Below, piece by piece: positions 32,104 to 48,824 of a DNA stretch of 64,000 bases. Made by a program: the position numbers and the translations under genes. This DNA is from Escherichia phage REP4. The notes beneath the pieces are model-generated. The model searched no databases. It was not told where the DNA came from and saw nothing but the letters and a program-made list of their open reading frames with translations. The stretch lies in the sequence record OQ174503.1; one strand, given 5' to 3'. How positions within the stretch are numbered: position 1 is the stretch's first letter; each line of letters opens with the position of its first letter.

Positions 32104-32475
32104 TCACTCAAATTTAATGGCTTGAAGAAGACTAATAATTCTCAAGCGACTTCTTTCATCTTTAACTGTAAAAGAAAGAGGGTCGCCAGATTTCATAGTG
32201 ATAGTGCATTCAAAATCAAAATCTTCGGAAACTTCTTTGAAGAAGTCAAATTCTTCATCATAAATTAGAACACTACTCCGCAGACTATGAAGAACTTTTC
32301 CATCATTTCCAGATGCTGTACTAATCATTGTAACATTATGACCTTTCATATCTTCAACGATAAATTCACTAGTCAATATTACAGCATTAATAGAACTATT
32401 CCTATTACTAGCAGAAAGTAGATATTTCTGTTCTTCACCTTCACGAATGCGATATTTCTTACCAATTTTAAACAT
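32104..32475 (-). CDS. Hypothetical 123-aa protein
   Basis: ORF track; ATG start. Confidence 0.6.
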   Translation of the reverse strand: MFKIGKKYRIREGEEQKYLLSASNRNSSINAVILTSEFIVEDMKGHNVTMISTASGNDGKVLHSLRSSVLIYDEEFDFFKEVSEDFDFECTITMKSGDPLSFTVKDERSRLRIISLLQAIKFE

Positions 32476-32656: not shown

Positions 32657-33076
32657 TTATTCCTTAAAGTGTGCTTTCAACATCTGATACAAGGACCATG
32701 CCTGCTCATTATTTTCAATAATAACTTTCATGACAGGAAATTCGGTGAAATCTTCTATTTGTTCTTGCTCTTCCTGCTCTTGCTCTTCAGCTGCCTGATA
32801 TGGATTTTCCACTTCATCAAAGAACCCAGCTTCACTTTTTGAAAGCCAAATAAAGTCTTCATCCAAAACATCTTTGCCAGAAGATAGTACTAAATTTCCA
32901 GTAGATGACAAAATTTTAATAGGACGCCCAAGAGCGTCCACATCTAAAATTTTAAAAGGATACATACCTAAACGTCGCGCATAAATTCCGTTATCAGTAT
33001 GGTCTTTAATAAAATTTTCTTGAGCTTGTTTATTTTTAAATTGATACCATTTATTAACTTCAAATTTAATAGCCAT
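32657..33076 (-). CDS. Hypothetical 139-aa protein with acidic [10 protein letters not shown] tract (goF position by size)
   Basis: ORF track; ATG start. Confidence 0.6.
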
Positions 33077-34245: not shown

Positions 34246-34788
34246 TTAATTTAAAATAGCTACCACCGCACTACGAGGTACTACACTAAAATCACCTGCA
34301 TGAACAACGTTCAGAAGTTCAACACCATCTTCAATCCACTGGTCTGTTACCCAACCACAGACCGAAATAAATGGAGTCTTGATAGCTACAGCACGAGTTA
34401 GAAGGTCTGTAGGGTCTTGTTCTTCAACTTCTTGGAACAGGATGAACTCTGCCTCATAAACCAGGATTTTCTCTATTTTGTTATTGTCTAAACGACGACC
34501 GTGGACAATATAAGATTTAGTAAACCATTTACTTTTTTCAAAGTCTTCAACAGTAAATTCGCCTTCACCAAAAACATCAGTCAGAGTTTTATGGCCGGAA
34601 ATCAAGGCATTAGTTTTAATTTCAGGTTCAACCAGTTTGTAGGTTTTGCCGATTTCAATAGCGGTAGTCATAGTAGGTTCCTTAATTTCCAATGGTTTAA
34701 CAGGGCATACATAAGTGCTTACAACATCAAAATCAATCAGTTTAGCTACTGGATTTGGTGTGTATTCAGGATTATAATTAAATTTCAT
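34246..34788 (-). CDS. Hypothetical 180-aa protein; paralog of 33672..34169
   Basis: ORF track; C-terminal motif CGWVTDQWIEDGVELLNVVHAGDFSVVPRS. Confidence 0.65.
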   Translation of the reverse strand: MKFNYNPEYTPNPVAKLIDFDVVSTYVCPVKPLEIKEPTMTTAIEIGKTYKLVEPEIKTNALISGHKTLTDVFGEGEFTVEDFEKSKWFTKSYIVHGRRLDNNKIEKILVYEAEFILFQEVEEQDPTDLLTRAVAIKTPFISVCGWVTDQWIEDGVELLNVVHAGDFSVVPRSAVVAILN

Positions 34789-45155: not shown

Positions 45156-45320
45156 TTACTCTTCTTTTTCTTTAGATTCCTCTTTTTTCTTTTTAGGAAT
45201 CTGTTCAGGACCTTTATTTACTACAGCGCCTGACGTTGTTCCAGTAGAGATATTTTCAGGATTACCACCTGAATCGCCAGCTACCATATCTTCTTTAATA
45301 AATTCTTTATATGTTTTCAT
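45156..45320 (-). CDS. 61.1: Hypothetical 54-aa Gly/Lys/Glu-rich protein (not in ORF track)
   Basis: Manual translation MKTYKEFIKEDMVAGDSGGNPENISTGTTSGAVVNKGPEQIPKKKKEESKEKEE; position and size of T4 61.1. Confidence 0.5.
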   Translation of the reverse strand: MKTYKEFIKEDMVAGDSGGNPENISTGTTSGAVVNKGPEQIPKKKKEESKEKEE

Positions 45321-45321
45321 A

Positions 45322-45948
45322 TTAACCTCTATTCATAAAAGCATTAAAAATTTGGTCATCAATAGAAACATTCACTTTAGACTGTTTTTCTGATGGTAAT
45401 TCATATCCACATATTACAATTTTATGATCAATATCAAAATACACAGAAGCAATATGATTAATGATGTTTTCAGTAAAGTCTAAATCAACATCAATATCTT
45501 TTTGACCACAGCCCAAAGGATAAATAATGCGAGTAATTCGATTATCTTTAACAAAGATTCCACCGATATACTCTGTGCTGCGTTCAAAGTCTACACGCCG
45601 ACGAAATGAAAAATATTCAGGCTCTTTATGAGCTCGGCTCATAGGACACAACGAGTAACTAGAATAAGAGATGTCAAATCCTACGCCTTCAATATGAGCC
45701 AAATTATCATGATTAAACCAATTATAATCGTACGCCAAGTCCATTAGATTATAATATGTGAAAGGCACCGGATTAACATCATTAGTCACAAGCATGTAAT
45801 TAGCAACTGCTATAATTTCATTATTTTTAACGAATACAAACCGTGATTGATGTGAATGACCTGGACCTGCGTTTTCACGATTAATGATATAACACTGGGC
45901 ACCTTTATATTTGTACGTGTCTTTGCACTTGTGCATTTGATAAAGCAT
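45322..45948 (-). CDS. Hypothetical 208-aa protein at the T4 61.2 position (the gene reported as anti-DarT factor AdfA in T4)
   Basis: ORF track; position between 61.1 and sp and length match T4 61.2; assignment is by synteny and size only. Confidence 0.6.
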   Translation of the reverse strand: MLYQMHKCKDTYKYKGAQCYIINRENAGPGHSHQSRFVFVKNNEIIAVANYMLVTNDVNPVPFTYYNLMDLAYDYNWFNHDNLAHIEGVGFDISYSSYSLCPMSRAHKEPEYFSFRRRVDFERSTEYIGGIFVKDNRITRIIYPLGCGQKDIDVDLDFTENIINHIASVYFDIDHKIVICGYELPSEKQSKVNVSIDDQIFNAFMNRG

Positions 45949-46241
45949 TATTCACCTACCACTTCAGCGATGATATTTTTATTATTGAAGTTTTTATCAC
46001 AATACAGAACGTAATTATACTGCATTACACCACCAGACTTAAGCTGTTTTTGTACTTCAGCTTTCATTTCAGGGCGATCACGCTCAACGATATTCATAAT
46101 ATCCGCTTCAATTTGAGTTTCAACTTCAGTCTGATCTGCAGTCATAGACCATTCACACAAATCTTTGTCATAACCCGCCATAGCAGGCTGAGCAGCGCAA
46201 GAAGATAAAGCAAAAATTGCAGCAAAGATAAATTTTTTCAT
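45948..46241 (-). CDS. sp: Spackle periplasmic protein (superinfection exclusion; inhibitor of gp5 lysozyme), 97 aa
   Basis: ORF track; 22-aa signal peptide MKKFIFAAIFALSSCAAQPAMA then 75-aa mature part with two Cys; size and position of T4 sp (61.3). Confidence 0.85.
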   Translation of the reverse strand: MKKFIFAAIFALSSCAAQPAMAGYDKDLCEWSMTADQTEVETQIEADIMNIVERDRPEMKAEVQKQLKSGGVMQYNYVLYCDKNFNNKNIIAEVVGE

Positions 46242-46269
46242 GATAATCTCCTCAGTAGTTTATGTTTAT

Positions 46270-46299
46270 ATAGTATCTCAATTTTCAACAAAAGTAAAC
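46270..46299 (-). promoter_or_regulatory. Early promoter for sp (GTTTAC, 18 nt, TACTAT)
   Basis: Minus-strand GTTTAC at 46294-46299. Confidence 0.6.
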
Positions 46300-46346
46300 A
46301 CTAGTAGAAGCAAACAGACAAATTGCAATAATTGGTGATTTCAGTT

Positions 46347-46541
46347 TCATTCTTCTCCTCCTTCATGTTGATGAACATATTCTTTTTCAAGTCTAGAGCA
46401 CAAGTTTTCATATTCAACTAATAAAAGTGAATCAAGTGCGTTATTTCTATGCTGACACCGTTCTTGTAAAGAATCCATCTCTGAACGTTGTTCTTGTGTT
46501 AATAATTGATAACCTGATACTTTAGACATTTTGTTCTCCAT
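46347..46541 (-). CDS. Hypothetical 64-aa acidic helical protein
   Basis: ORF track; ATG; no counterpart I can place in the T4 61-41 interval. Confidence 0.55.
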   Translation of the reverse strand: MENKMSKVSGYQLLTQEQRSEMDSLQERCQHRNNALDSLLLVEYENLCSRLEKEYVHQHEGGEE

Positions 46542-46593
46542 TTACTCGTTTGTTTTGATAGGTCTATAATAACATGTTTAAAACAAAAGTAAA

Positions 46594-46848
46594 CTATTTT
46601 ATTTCCTCAAGTTCGTTAATCAATAAAAGTTCTCTGACGCTAAAAACAAAGAAAAATGTGTTCCCATCAACCAGAGCATGACCGCTAATAGAACACCCTC
46701 TGCGGAATTTAGAAACTTCACAATCTAGAACTGTAAAAGGTTTTAATCCTATGACTTTAGCTGTGCGTCTATTCAGTTCACAACCACTCGCGAATTTTTC
46801 CAAATCTTCTTCTGATTTAAACTGATATTCTCTATTAACTAGCATCAT
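46594..46848 (-). CDS. Hypothetical 84-aa protein with three Cys
   Basis: ORF track; preceded by its own early promoter. Confidence 0.55.
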   Translation of the reverse strand: MMLVNREYQFKSEEDLEKFASGCELNRRTAKVIGLKPFTVLDCEVSKFRRGCSISGHALVDGNTFFFVFSVRELLLINELEEIK

Positions 46849-46879
46849 TTTCTTTTCTCCGCGATTAGCTGATAGAATT

Positions 46880-46909
46880 ACTATAACACAACTCTATCAG
46901 CTTGTAAAC
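46880..46909 (-). promoter_or_regulatory. Early promoter (GTTTAC, 18 nt, TATAGT)
   Basis: Minus-strand GTTTAC at 46904-46909. Confidence 0.65.
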
Positions 46910-46911
46910 TA

Positions 46912-47154
46912 CTATTTTACTAGCATCAATAGCTGTTTCTCTAACTTGACGATTTTACGAAAGTATCTTTTGCATTGGCGAATCTGTCGCTTCGTAGGGC
47001 GCACAGCAAACTTAATAAATTCCACTCGACCAAATGGAGGGCTTTCTTCTGCTGGAATATCTAACACCAATTCCCACGTATCTGCAACAAGTGCTTTGAA
47101 TTGAGTATTTTTCCTGACATTATATGGAGTAGGTTTAAATAAAACAATATGCAT
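46912..47154 (-). CDS. Hypothetical 80-aa basic protein at the T4 61.4 position (the gene reported as toxIN inhibitor TifA in T4)
   Basis: ORF track 46912..47196 shortened to ATG at MHIVLFKPTPY with RBS GAGGATAAT; Lys/Arg-rich C-terminus; assignment by position only. Confidence 0.5.
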   Translation of the reverse strand: MHIVLFKPTPYNVRKNTQFKALVADTWELVLDIPAEESPPFGRVEFIKFAVRPTKRQIRQCKRYFRKIVKLEKQLLMLVK

Positions 47155-47155
47155 A

Positions 47156-47338
47156 TTATCCTCGGCAATCCACTTCACATACTTTCTTGTCATCAATGAA
47201 AGCTTTAACTAATGCTTTATTAACTTCAGCATATTGAGTAGTAGCCCATTGAACGTCATCTTTCATCATTGTGATTTCTTTAGTAAACATGCTTTCATTC
47301 TTAAACCACCCCATAAAAACTACCTTTACCAATTCCAT
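47156..47338 (-). CDS. dmd: Dmd-like antitoxin (inhibitor of RnlA/LsoA toxins), 60 aa
   Basis: ORF track; 60 aa, directly downstream of helicase 41 with its own early promoter, as T4 dmd (61.5). Confidence 0.6.
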   Translation of the reverse strand: MELVKVVFMGWFKNESMFTKEITMMKDDVQWATTQYAEVNKALVKAFIDDKKVCEVDCRG

Positions 47339-47367
47339 AACAATCTCCTCATTTAACCAACAAGACT

Positions 47368-47397
47368 ACTATACCATAGTCTTGTCGGCTTGTAAAC
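47368..47397 (-). promoter_or_regulatory. Early promoter for dmd (GTTTAC, 18 nt, TATAGT)
   Basis: Minus-strand GTTTAC at 47392-47397. Confidence 0.65.
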
Positions 47398-48824
47398 TAA
47401 AATTTTAATTCATTTGCCAAAGCATCTAACTGAGCTCGAGCGGATTCGTTTCTTTGATAGCGGTTCTGTTCAGCTTGTATCTGTTGTGAACCTGCTACTT
47501 CGTTCACTTCAGTTGGAGTAGAATCTTGTTCAATTTCTACCCATTTCTGATTTCCTTTTTGAACACCCATCAAAAACTTATTCCATTTATTCTTATCACC
47601 ATATCGTGATTTGATTTGCTTAATGAGTTGCTGTTCAGCCGCTGCTAACTCCTCGGTTTCAATGACCGCAAGCATAAAATCGGCTGTTGCTGGAAGACCG
47701 GCAGATTCTGCAATATCGCTCATGTTAACATCAGAAGAATCCCAAGCTTGCTTACCAACCTGTGCTGCAGTCCAAAGAACAGTTTCGGTTTCAACAGCCA
47801 GAGCACGCAATTCCTCTGCAATAGCTTTAACAGTTGTATAACTATTTTCTGAATAAACTCTGATGCGGCAAGATTTACAAATACCTAGATAGTCAACAAT
47901 AATGATTGTTGGAACAAAATTCTTCTTGAGCTTTAATTCGTTTAAAAGAGAACGAAATGTATTAGCGTCTGCTCCACCAGTAGGATACTGTTTAACGATT
48001 AAACGACCGAGAGTAGATTTCTCACGCCATTTTTCCATTTTTCCTTTATACTCAGCATAAGAAATATGCCCATCATCAATGTCATCAAGAGAAACATCGA
48101 GCATATTAGCGTCAATACGTTTAGCACAGACTTCTTCTGCCATTTCCATGGAAATGTAAAGAACATTATGACCGAGCTGTAAATAATCTGCTGCCAATGA
48201 ACATAGACCTAATGACTTACCAACGTTAACACCAGCCATTAAAACGTTCAGTGTTCCAGTCTCAGCTCCGCCTTTAGTAATTTTATTTAGAATTTTGAGT
48301 TTAAATGGAACCTTACGAGCTTTATTCATATAAGATAGCCAACGTGCTTCGTAGTCATCCATCCAATCATGGCCAACATAGCTATCAAATGAAATTGATA
48401 ATGCTTGACGCATGATGTCAGGAATAGCACCAACATCCGGCATTTTCTTATTTCGTTTTTCCGGAGGAAGTTCAGCATTAGTTTGAATTTCAATTATTTT
48501 AGACGTAGCATTAAACATCGCCCTTTGCTGAACATATTTTTCCGTTTCTTTTACTAACCAGCTGTGGTCTTCCGGAGAATCGGTTAGTTTTGAAATAAGT
48601 GTTTTTACACCAGAATATTCTGTTTCAGTAAATGAACTATTTTCTAATGCAACATTTAACGCATTAATAGATGGAACGCTATGGTACTCATTAACATGAG
48701 ATTTAATTAATTTGAATGTATTTTTAGCTGGACCACTTTCAAAATATTCTGAATCCATATATGGCCAAACTTTTGAAAAATAAGCTTGATCAAATATGAG
48801 ATGAGAAAGAATAATTTCTACCAC
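47397..48824 (-). CDS. 41: Replicative DNA helicase gp41 (DnaB family), 475 aa; apparent GTG start
   Basis: ORF track; near-identical to T4 gp41; first codon GTG with AAGGAG RBS 5 nt upstream. Confidence 0.95.
   Translation of the reverse strand: MVEIILSHLIFDQAYFSKVWPYMDSEYFESGPAKNTFKLIKSHVNEYHSVPSINALNVALENSSFTETEYSGVKTLISKLTDSPEDHSWLVKETEKYVQQRAMFNATSKIIEIQTNAELPPEKRNKKMPDVGAIPDIMRQALSISFDSYVGHDWMDDYEARWLSYMNKARKVPFKLKILNKITKGGAETGTLNVLMAGVNVGKSLGLCSLAADYLQLGHNVLYISMEMAEEVCAKRIDANMLDVSLDDIDDGHISYAEYKGKMEKWREKSTLGRLIVKQYPTGGADANTFRSLLNELKLKKNFVPTIIIVDYLGICKSCRIRVYSENSYTTVKAIAEELRALAVETETVLWTAAQVGKQAWDSSDVNMSDIAESAGLPATADFMLAVIETEELAAAEQQLIKQIKSRYGDKNKWNKFLMGVQKGNQKWVEIEQDSTPTEVNEVAGSQQIQAEQNRYQRNESARAQLDALANELKF

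What the first reader, a model, noticed from the sequence alone, without database searches (positions are those of the whole stretch)
46347..46848. Two-gene early transcription unit of unknown function inside the 61-41 hotspot
The 84-aa ORF (three Cys, mixed charge) and the 64-aa ORF (acidic, predicted helical) are co-oriented, separated by about 50 nt, and driven by a canonical early promoter. They have the size and expression class of phage inhibitors such as anti-toxins or anti-CRISPR-like proteins. The acidic one could be a DNA mimic or an inhibitor that pairs with a basic partner.
Basis: inference. Interest (0 to 1): 0.65.

Follow-up and report, generated by a model that had tools for sequence, protein, structure and literature searches.

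The report
Two independent T4-type accessory-gene cassettes
The two small genes are real early genes of a T4-like phage, but they are separate, independently gained and lost cassettes in a known counter-defence region: one is a short relative of the phage protein GoF, the other a rare 60-residue protein of unknown function.

Summary
Both ORFs exist at the stated coordinates on the minus strand, between tifA (61.4) and sp in a Tequatrovirus 41-61 region. They are not one transcription unit. Each has its own T4 early-promoter match, and public phage genomes show all four states of this site: neither gene (T4), the 84-aa gene only (RB3), the small gene only (SA20RB, IsaacDaniel), or both. Breakpoints fall in repeated promoter -35 boxes or at the ribosome-binding site.

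The 84-aa ORF is not of unknown family. It is a stand-alone paralogue of the N-terminal SH3/LSm-like barrel of GoF (hhalign 97.3%, E 2.8e-11). It is under purifying selection (dN/dS 0.07-0.16) and stays in the 41-61 island in the three other T4-like contexts examined.

The "64-aa" ORF is really 60 aa, starting at ATG 46529. It is mildly acidic (pI 4.9) and occurs in only 20 phage records, plus one 55%-identical copy on a Vibrio conjugative plasmid. Its promoter and leader resemble a motA leader.

Dmd, TifA and AdfA are neighbours in this published "anti-TA island", so a counter-defence role is plausible but untested. Nothing supports a DNA mimic or a partnership between the two proteins. This is an ordinary finding that yields reasonable candidates for testing.

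The parts
46594..46848 (-). ORF84: 84-aa stand-alone GoF-N-terminal-domain-like (SH3/LSm-like barrel) protein
   Evidence: ORF with GGAG 8 nt before the ATG. phrog_2980, E 3e-20. hhalign against the GoF family: 97.3%, E 2.8e-11, 79 columns. AF2 pLDDT 84.7, five strands plus a helical insert. dN/dS 0.07-0.16.
46867..46909 (-). PeSL-type element for ORF84: early promoter (GTTTACA-N17-TATAGT, 46909-46880) with a 14-bp hairpin (46902-46867) across the spacer, -10 box and start site
   Evidence: Promoter scan, motif scan, inverted repeat I9. RNA fold -18 kcal/mol, z -4.06.
46347..46529 (-). ORF60: 60-aa mildly acidic protein.
   Evidence: phrog_37915, E 1.7e-44, over residues 5-64. Found in 20 phage records and one Vibrio plasmid copy with 55% identity.
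46518..46594 (-). ORF60's own early promoter (46594-46566), leader, SD and first codons; homologous to a motA promoter/leader of another T4-like genus
   Evidence: Promoter scans. 88% identity over 82 nt to the Dhakavirus PSD9 motA upstream region.
46577..46594 (-). Upstream copy of the 18-nt direct repeat (a -35 box, GTTTACTTTTGTT...) bounding the 295-bp ORF60 cassette
   Evidence: the repeat finder D4, 89% identity, spacing 295. Haplotype comparison with RB3.
46270..46299 (-). sp early promoter. Its -35 box (46282-46299) is the downstream copy of the repeat bounding the ORF60 cassette.
46285..46350 (-). 21-codon hydrophobic mini-ORF (MKLKSPIIAICLFASTSVYFC). Its ATG overlaps the ORF60 stop codon (ATGA) and follows GGAGGAG. 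Status uncertain.
   Evidence: Sequence. Present only in the 20 records that carry ORF60.
46912..47154 (-). tifA (61.4), DUF7279: the upstream neighbour and a known ToxN inhibitor. Its C-terminus (..QLLMLVK) differs from T4's.
   Evidence: Pfam PF23945, E 4e-20. Translations. PMC9391042 and PMC10853763.
47156..47338 (-). dmd (61.5), a known antitoxin against RnlA/LsoA; island context
   Evidence: Pfam PF17587, E 1.6e-46.
45948..46241 (-). sp (spackle), the downstream neighbour
   Evidence: Pfam PF25676, E 2.8e-45.
45322..45948 (-). adfA (61.2), anti-DarT factor A; island context
   Evidence: Pfam PF23813, E 1.9e-135.
32657..33076 (-). goF (comC-alpha) of the same phage, 139 aa: the full-length paralogue whose N-terminal domain ORF84 resembles
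   Evidence: blastp and phmmer within the window. phrog_622, E 5.7e-38, and phrog_2980, E 1.6e-6. Alignments.

Best explanation
The interval holds two separate accessory-gene cassettes, each with its own early promoter. They were inserted into the tifA-sp gap of a Tequatrovirus 41-61 variable region by short-homology recombination at regulatory motifs (early-promoter -35 boxes and Shine-Dalgarno sequences). This is the modular shuffling already described for T4-type hyperplastic regions.

Cassette 1 (ORF84) encodes a single-domain SH3/LSm-like beta-barrel. [quoted passage not shown] It is a conserved, selected gene that stays in the 41-61 island next to or near tifA.

Cassette 2 (ORF60) encodes a rare 60-aa, mildly acidic, probably helical protein. 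Its expression signals were borrowed from a motA-type leader, or from ORF84's leader in phages that carry ORF60 alone.

Inferred, not shown: both are made immediately after infection. ORF84 most likely acts on RNA or on an RNA-handling host factor. This rests on the post-transcriptional RNA-stabilising effect of GoF(D25Y) and on the RNase-toxin inhibitors Dmd and TifA encoded beside it. ORF60 probably binds and blocks a host protein. Either could be an inhibitor of a host toxin or defence system, acting independently of the other.
For: Anatomy and independence:
- Four haplotypes exist at the same site: T4 (none), RB3 (ORF84 only), SA20RB and IsaacDaniel (ORF60 only), and the window and ime09 (both).
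- Counts: the tblastn search with ORF84 gave 70 records at >=95% identity, ORF60 is in 20 records, and 16 records carry both.
- Junctions: an 18-nt repeat of the -35 box flanks the 295-bp ORF60 cassette. In ORF60-only phages the gene is fused to ORF84's promoter and leader at GGAGAA.
- Promoters: 18 of 18 early-promoter motif hits are on the minus strand, against 1.4 in shuffles, with one hit before each of dmd, ORF84, ORF60 and sp. A hairpin lies over ORF84's -10 box (z -4.06), as at dmd (z -5.25). This matches the PeSL description in PMC2839356.

ORF84 family:
- phrog_2980, E 3e-20. The window's own goF hits the same profile over residues 11-91.
- BLASTP to GoF orthologues gives 29-31% identity over 93% of ORF84.
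- hhalign: 97.3%, E 2.8e-11.
- These are the same structural neighbours reported for GoF in PMC12152347.
- dN/dS is 0.07-0.16. Homologues sit in the 41-61 island in SP18 and in metagenomic T4-likes, directly before tifA in L007 and one small ORF away in L008/L009.

Context: Dmd, TifA, AdfA and Sp flank the genes. PMC9391042 calls the region a probable anti-TA island.
Against: - No direct evidence of expression, binding or any anti-defence activity.
- Wild-type GoF and MotB.1 themselves have no known function, and only the D25Y mutant stabilised RNA. Family membership therefore predicts little.
- SH3-like barrels bind many kinds of ligand.
- The good AF2 model used an alignment that included GoF and MotB.1 sequences, so its resemblance to them is partly built in. 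The model made from the family's own 5 sequences was poor (pLDDT 62.5).
- ORF60 varies too little (0-2 codon differences between copies) to test for selection. Its chimeric 5' end and the truncated-looking mini-ORF after it are compatible with a recombination by-product.
- PADLOC, NCBIfam, Pfam and PDB sequence searches gave nothing for either protein.
Confidence: 0.75

Rival explanations
1. The two ORFs form one co-functional early operon, for example an inhibitor pair or an anti-toxin module, in which the acidic small protein pairs with its neighbour.
For: The genes are adjacent and co-oriented, with no terminator between them. They co-occur in 16 records. They lie in the anti-TA island.
Against: ORF84 occurs without ORF60 in roughly 54 records, and ORF60 occurs without ORF84 in 4. 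Each has its own promoter. ORF84 is not basic (pI 5.8). ORF84 homologues in other genera and in metagenomes never have an ORF60 neighbour.
Confidence: 0.05
2. ORF60 is a DNA mimic, or another strongly acidic decoy, that blocks a DNA-binding defence such as a restriction enzyme.
For: Net charge is about -6 and pI is 4.9, with an acidic C-terminal tail EGGEE. It is small and carries an early-promoter signature.
Against: Only 20% of residues are acidic and 10% are basic, which from general knowledge is well below typical mimics such as Ocr or Arn. The conserved positions shared with the Vibrio homologue are mostly hydrophobic, Gln, Cys and His rather than a patterned acidic surface. No structural model was available.
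Confidence: 0.05
3. ORF60, together with the 21-codon mini-ORF after it, is a nearly neutral passenger. On this view it is a young or decaying fragment that spreads because it is flanked by recombinogenic promoter repeats, and it does nothing useful.
For: Its distribution is extremely narrow: 20 phage records, one cluster among 5.8 billion proteins, and none in IMG/VR, JGI metagenomes or GTDB genomes. Its 5' end is a chimera with a motA-type leader and the codons for MSKV. The following mini-ORF looks like a cut-off signal peptide. There is too little variation to show selection.
Against: A 55%-identical full-length homologue exists on a Vibrio MOBH conjugative plasmid, with 30 invariant positions including both Cys and a His. 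That implies a conserved folded protein. The ORF stayed intact under two different promoter/leader contexts, and only in-frame length changes are seen.
Confidence: 0.2
4. ORF84 works on transcription or translation rather than on defence. For example, it could bind RNA polymerase, Rho or the ribosome, as KOW, Tudor and EF-P-type barrels do, and tune elongation or termination of phage transcripts. This would echo the old antitermination idea for GoF/ComC-alpha.
Confidence: 0.2

Closest known systems
T4 GoF (ComC-alpha) and the GoF/MotB.1/Frd.2 family of Tevenvirinae LSm-like-fold early proteins (Kim et al. 2025, PMC12152347)
   Same: ORF84 aligns over its whole length with the GoF N-terminal domain (hhalign 97.3%, 30% identity). 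It has the same predicted barrel of five antiparallel strands (ORF84's model places two helices between strands 1 and 2). It shares structural neighbours with GoF (FeoA, IdeR) and hits T4 MotB.1 in BFVD. It has an early-promoter signature and occurs in T4-like phages only.
   Different: ORF84 has no linker or C-terminal domain (84 aa against 120-141 aa). It lies in the 41-61 island rather than the 39-motB region. It has family-specific invariant residues C23, C43, C52 and H57 that GoF lacks. It has Gly where GoF has D25, the site of the gain-of-function D25Y change. It is present in only a minority of Tequatroviruses.
PeSL (promoter-early stem-loop) ORFan cassettes of T4-type phages (Arbiol et al. 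2010, PMC2839356; Comeau et al. 2014, PMC4122927)
   Same: Small ORFs of unknown function sit in a hyperplastic region. Each is preceded by an AT-rich stop region, a sigma70-like early promoter, an SD and an ATG. ORF84's promoter has a stem-loop overlapping the -10 box. Indels between close relatives have breakpoints inside the repeated promoter motifs.
   Different: ORF60's own promoter has no significant stem-loop (z -0.96). One junction uses the SD (GGAGAA) rather than the promoter. The stems lack the G/C tracts typical of RB49 and phi1. Mini-circle formation was not and could not be tested.
Anti-TA island genes of T4: Dmd (61.5), TifA (61.4), AdfA (61.2) (PMC9391042, PMC10853763)
   Same: Same genomic island, same strand and the same early expression signals. 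All are small non-essential proteins. TifA and ORF84 homologues are directly adjacent in several phages.
   Different: There is no sequence similarity to any of the three. No toxin target is known and nothing has been tested.
Hypothetical 62-aa ORF on Vibrio fluvialis conjugative plasmid pIDH5335-2 (NZ_AP028131.1, 682-867; no CDS listed there in the PLSDB gene table, which is incomplete)
   Same: It is the only non-phage relative of ORF60: 55% identity and 30 invariant positions, including the SGYQLL and LQERC-x-H motifs and both Cys. It also sits in a run of small co-oriented unknown genes on a mobile element.
   Different: It lacks the MSKV start and has a 4-residue insertion and a different tail. 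The host element is a MOBH/F-type conjugative plasmid, not a phage. Its function is equally unknown.

Membership tests
GoF/MotB.1/Frd.2 LSm-like-fold family (ORF84) | Sequence or profile homology to the GoF N-terminal domain | tested here: met
   hhalign of the ORF84 family against the GoF family: probability 97.3%, E 2.8e-11, 79 columns. Reciprocal PHROG hits. BLASTP 29-31% identity over 93% of ORF84.
GoF/MotB.1/Frd.2 LSm-like-fold family (ORF84) | Bent five-stranded antiparallel beta-sheet (SH3/LSm-like barrel) | tested here: met
GoF/MotB.1/Frd.2 LSm-like-fold family (ORF84) | Two-domain architecture: N-terminal barrel, flexible linker, variable C-terminal domain | tested here: not met
   ORF84 ends at residue 84, where the GoF barrel ends. 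It is a barrel-only member.
GoF/MotB.1/Frd.2 LSm-like-fold family (ORF84) | Early gene of a Tevenvirinae phage | tested here: inconclusive
   An early-promoter match with TGn lies directly upstream and the host phage is a Tequatrovirus. Expression itself was not measured.
GoF/MotB.1/Frd.2 LSm-like-fold family (ORF84) | Effect on RNA stability or RNA binding (shown only for GoF D25Y) | not testable with these tools
   Needs reporter assays, RT-qPCR or binding assays.
PeSL ORFan cassette | Strong sigma70-like early promoter with an AT-rich upstream region, followed by SD and ATG | tested here: met
   Both ORFs: 46909-46880 and 46594-46566, each preceded by AAAATAG and followed by GGAG.
PeSL ORFan cassette | Stable stem-loop within or overlapping the promoter | tested here: inconclusive
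   Met for ORF84 (-18 kcal/mol, z -4.06) and not met for ORF60's own promoter (z -0.96).
PeSL ORFan cassette | Insertion/deletion polymorphism between close relatives, with breakpoints in the repeated elements | tested here: met
   Four haplotypes. Junctions fall at the -35 repeat GTTTACTTTTGTT and at GGAGAA.
PeSL ORFan cassette | Excision as mini-circles during infection | not testable with these tools
   Needs inverse PCR on infected cells.
Anti-TA island inhibitors (Dmd, TifA, AdfA) | Location in the 41-61 island among the known inhibitors | tested here: met
   Order on the minus strand: 41, dmd, tifA, ORF84, ORF60, sp, adfA, 61.1, 61.
Anti-TA island inhibitors (Dmd, TifA, AdfA) | Homology to a known inhibitor | tested here: not met
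   No Pfam, PHROG or NCBIfam link to Dmd, DUF7279 or AdfA.
Anti-TA island inhibitors (Dmd, TifA, AdfA) | Neutralises a host toxin or defence system | not testable with these tools
   Needs plating and toxicity-rescue assays.
DNA-mimic proteins (ORF60) | Very acidic protein whose surface carboxylates imitate the DNA backbone | tested here: inconclusive
   pI 4.9, 12 acidic and 6 basic residues out of 60, which is only moderately acidic.
   Each gene is found alone in other phages and there are two separate promoter matches.

The most novel reading that the evidence does not exclude
One or both proteins are new counter-defence factors of the T4 anti-TA island. ORF84 would be the first member of the GoF/LSm-like family with a defined job, for example shielding phage mRNA from, or trapping, a host endoribonuclease toxin, much as its neighbour TifA does. 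ORF60 would be a new small inhibitor shared between T4-like phages and a Vibrio conjugative plasmid.
Probability: 0.2. Interest if true: 0.6.

Novelty: new member of a known kind. Interest (0 to 1): 0.33.

Why it matters
The 41-61 region of T4-like phages already holds three proven inhibitors of toxin-antitoxin defences, and its remaining small genes are named in the literature as candidates. This analysis shows that the two ORFs are separate, naturally occurring presence/absence variants at one site, with sequenced phages for every combination. That amounts to a natural gene-swap experiment for host-range and defence-rescue tests.

It also gives the GoF/LSm-like family a minimal barrel-only member. 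That should be a simpler object for working out what the domain binds. Beyond this, the finding is ordinary: both genes are already annotated in public genomes, and the shuffling mechanism is known.

Tried and rejected
- First AF2 run on ORF84 with its 5 close homologues: pLDDT 62.5. The BFVD search with that model returned only noise, so both were discarded.
- Exhaustive HMMER search of 1.84 billion representatives with the ORF84 profile: one true relative (P0007). The other hits that were inspected were false: two are C2H2 zinc-finger arrays matching 'GxKPFxxLxCxxxF', and one is an SH3-like repeat protein.
- Word-indexed search of 5.8 billion proteins: 5 hits for ORF84 and 1 for ORF60.
- ORF60: no relatives in IMG/VR, JGI metagenomes, GTDB genomes or E. 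coli genomes.
- PDB sequence search: nothing for either protein.
- Pfam, NCBIfam and PADLOC: nothing for either protein.
- Rfam and tRNA scans of the locus: nothing, so an RNA gene is not hiding there.
- No intrinsic terminator was found.
- Paralogue search inside the window: ORF60 has none. ORF84 matches only goF.
- A longer version of the mini-ORF was looked for and not found.
- Pfam scan of the small genes around the Vibrio homologue: no significant family match. The plasmid's oriT-linked mobI lies about 50 kb away, so I dropped the idea that the homologue lies in a plasmid 'leading region'.
- A Cys3-His zinc site in ORF84 was considered.

Full report
WHAT IS THERE

The window is a T4-like (Tequatrovirus) genome. 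The closest public records over this stretch are Shigella phage vb_GEC_SH_GT and Escherichia phage JoYop, at 99.3-99.4% identity.

On the minus strand the local gene order is:
- 41 helicase (47397-48824)
- dmd (47156-47338)
- tifA/61.4 (46912-47154)
- the 84-aa ORF (46594-46848)
- the small ORF (46347-46541 as listed)
- sp (45948-46241)
- adfA/61.2 (45322-45948)
- 61.1
- 61 primase

Pfam identifies Dmd, DUF7279 (TifA), Spackle and AdfA with strong scores.

THE OBSERVATION, CHECKED

The 84-aa ORF has GGAG 8 nt before its ATG and three cysteines.

The 64-aa ORF is better read as 60 aa starting at ATG 46529, for three reasons:
- The sequence is AUGGAGAACAAAAUG, so the first AUG has no SD, while its own GGAG serves the second AUG.
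- In phages that carry this gene alone, the upstream AUG is missing and the 60-aa frame is intact.
- Public annotation and phrog_37915 are both 60 residues long.

The motif GTTTAC-N17-19-TAYWNT, a T4 early-promoter signature, occurs 18 times in the window. All 18 are on the minus strand, against 1.4 in shuffles. Consecutive hits lie in front of dmd (47397), ORF84 (46909), ORF60 (46594) and sp (46299). The first three also have the TGn extension.

No intrinsic terminator was found in 45200-47500. The promoter claim is therefore right, but there are two promoters for the two genes, and the run of early genes has no internal boundaries.

THEY ARE INDEPENDENT CASSETTES

Four states of the tifA-sp gap exist in sequenced phages:
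- T4 has neither gene; the intergenic gap is 60 nt.
- RB3 has ORF84 only.
- SA20RB and Hafnia phage IsaacDaniel have ORF60 only.
- The window, ime09, PP01 and others have both.

The counts are as follows. The tblastn search with ORF84 gave 70 records at >=95% identity and 18 more distant ones. ORF60 is in 20 records. Both genes are present in 16 records.

Reading the junctions shows how the states arose:
- The 295-bp ORF60 cassette is bounded by an 18-nt direct repeat of the -35 box..GTTTACTTTTGTT.. (46577-46594 and 46282-46299).
- In ORF60-only phages, ORF60 is joined to ORF84's promoter and leader at the SD, GGAGAA.
- The left edge of the ORF84 cassette lies in or just after the 3' end of tifA, which gives two TifA C-termini (QLLMLVK against QFVTCDYAEILK).

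ORF84's promoter carries a 14-bp hairpin across its spacer and -10 box (-18 kcal/mol, z -4.06), like the dmd promoter (z -5.25). This is the composite 'promoter-early stem-loop' (PeSL) arrangement described by Arbiol et al. In that account the stem-loop most often lies between the boxes or over the -10 box, and recombination between elements inserts or deletes ORFans (PMC2839356).

ORF60's own promoter, leader, SD and first codons are 88% identical over 82 nt to the motA upstream region of a Dhakavirus. The window's own motA shares only ATGTCTAAAGTA (MSKV). ORF60 therefore uses borrowed early-expression signals in both of its contexts.

WHAT ORF84 IS

ORF84 has no Pfam, NCBIfam, PADLOC or PDB sequence match. 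It does match phrog_2980, 'goF mRNA metabolism modulator', at E 3e-20.

Evidence that it is a GoF-domain paralogue:
- The same phage's goF (32657-33076, 139 aa) hits that profile over residues 11-91.
- GoF orthologues align to ORF84 at 29-31% identity over 93% of its length.
- A profile-profile comparison of the ORF84 family with the GoF family gives 97.3% probability, E 2.8e-11, with ORF84 residues 3-81 aligned to GoF residues 6-90.
- With a 22-sequence alignment, AlphaFold2 gives pLDDT 84.7 and a five-stranded sheet with two helices between strands 1 and 2.
- Foldseek against viral models finds T4 MotB.1 (P39415) and many uncharacterised proteins, largely from T4-like phages.

[quoted passage not shown] 2025 (PMC12152347).

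ORF84 is thus a barrel-only member of that family, with no linker or C-terminal domain. It is a real gene under purifying selection, with dN/dS of 0.07-0.16 against 57-81%-identical homologues.

Those homologues also lie in the 41-61 island. In SP18 the gene comes right after gene 41. In metagenomic T4-likes it lies upstream of tifA, directly adjacent in L007 and separated by a 50-aa ORF in L008/L009, in the place dmd occupies in T4.

Residues C23, C43, C52 and H57 are invariant in the ORF84 family and absent from GoF. I could not test whether they form a metal site.

WHAT ORF60 IS

ORF60 is a 7.1-kDa protein with pI 4.9, two Cys and three His. It has a hydrophobic repeat pattern suggestive of two amphipathic helices and a Gly/Glu tail whose length varies in frame between phages.

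It has no family match beyond its own PHROG. No relatives were found in IMG/VR, JGI metagenomes, GTDB genomes or E. coli genomes.

One relative did turn up. A 62-aa ORF, for which PLSDB's incomplete gene table lists no CDS, lies on Vibrio fluvialis plasmid pIDH5335-2. It is 55% identical with 30 invariant positions, including SGYQLL, EMD-x-LQERC-x-H and the second Cys. That plasmid is a MOBH/F-type conjugative element, and the ORF sits in a run of small co-oriented unknown genes.

ORF60 is therefore a rare but genuine small protein family shared between mobile elements. It is not obviously a random ORF, although too little variation exists among the phage copies to test for selection.

HOW IT MOST LIKELY WORKS

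Shown:
- The cassette anatomy.
- Independence of the two genes.
- ORF84's family and fold.
- Purifying selection on ORF84.
- Residence of both genes in the island.

Inferred:
- Early expression, from the promoter matches.
- For ORF84, action on RNA or an RNA-handling factor. GoF(D25Y) stabilises a gene-41-leader RNA post-transcriptionally, although wild-type GoF and MotB.1 do not. The island neighbours Dmd and TifA both neutralise endoribonuclease toxins, and TifA does so by binding RNA.
- For ORF60, binding of a host protein.

A counter-defence role fits the published suggestion that this region is an anti-TA island whose other genes are candidates. It rests on neighbourhood only. I put the counter-defence reading at about 0.2 and the anatomical and evolutionary account at about 0.75-0.9.

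RIVALS
- A co-functional pair is contradicted by the haplotypes.
- A DNA mimic is unsupported by composition.
- A neutral-passenger status for ORF60 remains possible (about 0.2).
- A transcription or translation role for ORF84 is as compatible with the fold as an RNA-stability role (about 0.2).

NOVELTY AND SCORE

Both genes are already annotated in public genomes, as 'hypothetical protein' or 'goF mRNA metabolism modulator'. ORF84's family and the shuffling mechanism are published. The new points are modest:
- ORF84 is a minimal barrel-only paralogue tied to the tifA neighbourhood.
- There is a natural four-haplotype series at one site.
- ORF60 reuses a motA-type leader.
- ORF60 has a plasmid homologue.

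Rating: new member of a known kind; interest about 0.33.

Noticed in passing
window 46285-46350 (minus strand): A 21-codon hydrophobic mini-ORF (MKLKSPIIAICLFASTSVYFC) starts in an ATGA overlap with the ORF60 stop codon. It sits behind a strong GGAGGAG and runs into the -35 box of the sp promoter. It looks like a signal peptide cut short. It travels with ORF60 in all 20 records and is found nowhere else. It has a weak 22-nt resemblance to the 5' end of sp (D2).
   Followed up: partly
window 46518-46594 (minus strand); L012 367-448: ORF60's promoter, leader, SD and first codons are 88% identical to the motA early promoter/leader of Dhakavirus phage PSD9, and similar to motA leaders of Klebsiella and Enterobacter T4-likes. 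The window's own motA (start 21554, minus strand) has a different leader but the same first four codons, MSKV.
   Followed up: yes
L013 5004-5192 (= NZ_AP028131.1 682-867): A 62-aa homologue of ORF60 (55% identity), with no CDS listed at that position in PLSDB's incomplete gene table, lies on a Vibrio fluvialis MOBH/F-type conjugative plasmid. It sits inside a long run of small co-oriented hypothetical genes; none of the ten neighbouring small proteins scanned has a significant Pfam match.
   Followed up: partly
window 46912-47196 (minus strand): tifA is listed as a 94-aa TTG ORF overlapping dmd, but the conserved protein starts at ATG 47154 (80 aa). Its C-terminus (..KLEKQLLMLVK) differs from T4's (..KLEKQFVTCDYAEILK). 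The two endings are found with different downstream cassettes, so a recombination breakpoint lies in the 3' end of tifA.
   Followed up: partly
L007 2179-3483; L008 2179-3640; L009: Metagenomic T4-like contigs have the order 41, a 253-aa unknown protein, an ORF84 homologue, then tifA and sp, with no dmd in the 41-tifA interval where T4 has it. L008 and L009 carry an extra 50-aa acidic ORF between the ORF84 homologue and tifA. The ORF84 homologue occupies dmd's position at the head of the tifA operon.
   Followed up: partly
window 46594-46848 (ORF84 residues 23, 43, 52, 57): C23, C43, C52 and H57 are invariant across the ORF84 family down to 56% identity and are absent from GoF.
   Followed up: no
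window 47357-47388 and 46867-46902 (minus strand): Strong hairpins (z -5.25 and -4.06) span the -10 regions of the dmd and ORF84 early promoters. In read-through RNA from upstream they would form at the ends of gene 41 and tifA respectively, with no U-tract after them.
   Followed up: partly
window 32104-32475, 32657-33076 and 34246-34788 (minus strand): The 39-motB region holds at least three further proteins with the same N-terminal barrel: goF, a 123-aa phrog_622 member, and MotB.1, which is listed as a 180-aa ORF but matches 141-aa proteins that start at an internal ATG.
   Followed up: partly
P0008, P0014 (representative-library hits): The ORF84 profile draws spurious hits to eukaryotic C2H2 zinc-finger arrays, because 'IGLKPFTVLDCEVSKFRR' resembles the finger-linker consensus TGEKPFxCxxCxKxF. 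This is a trap for automated annotation.
   Followed up: yes
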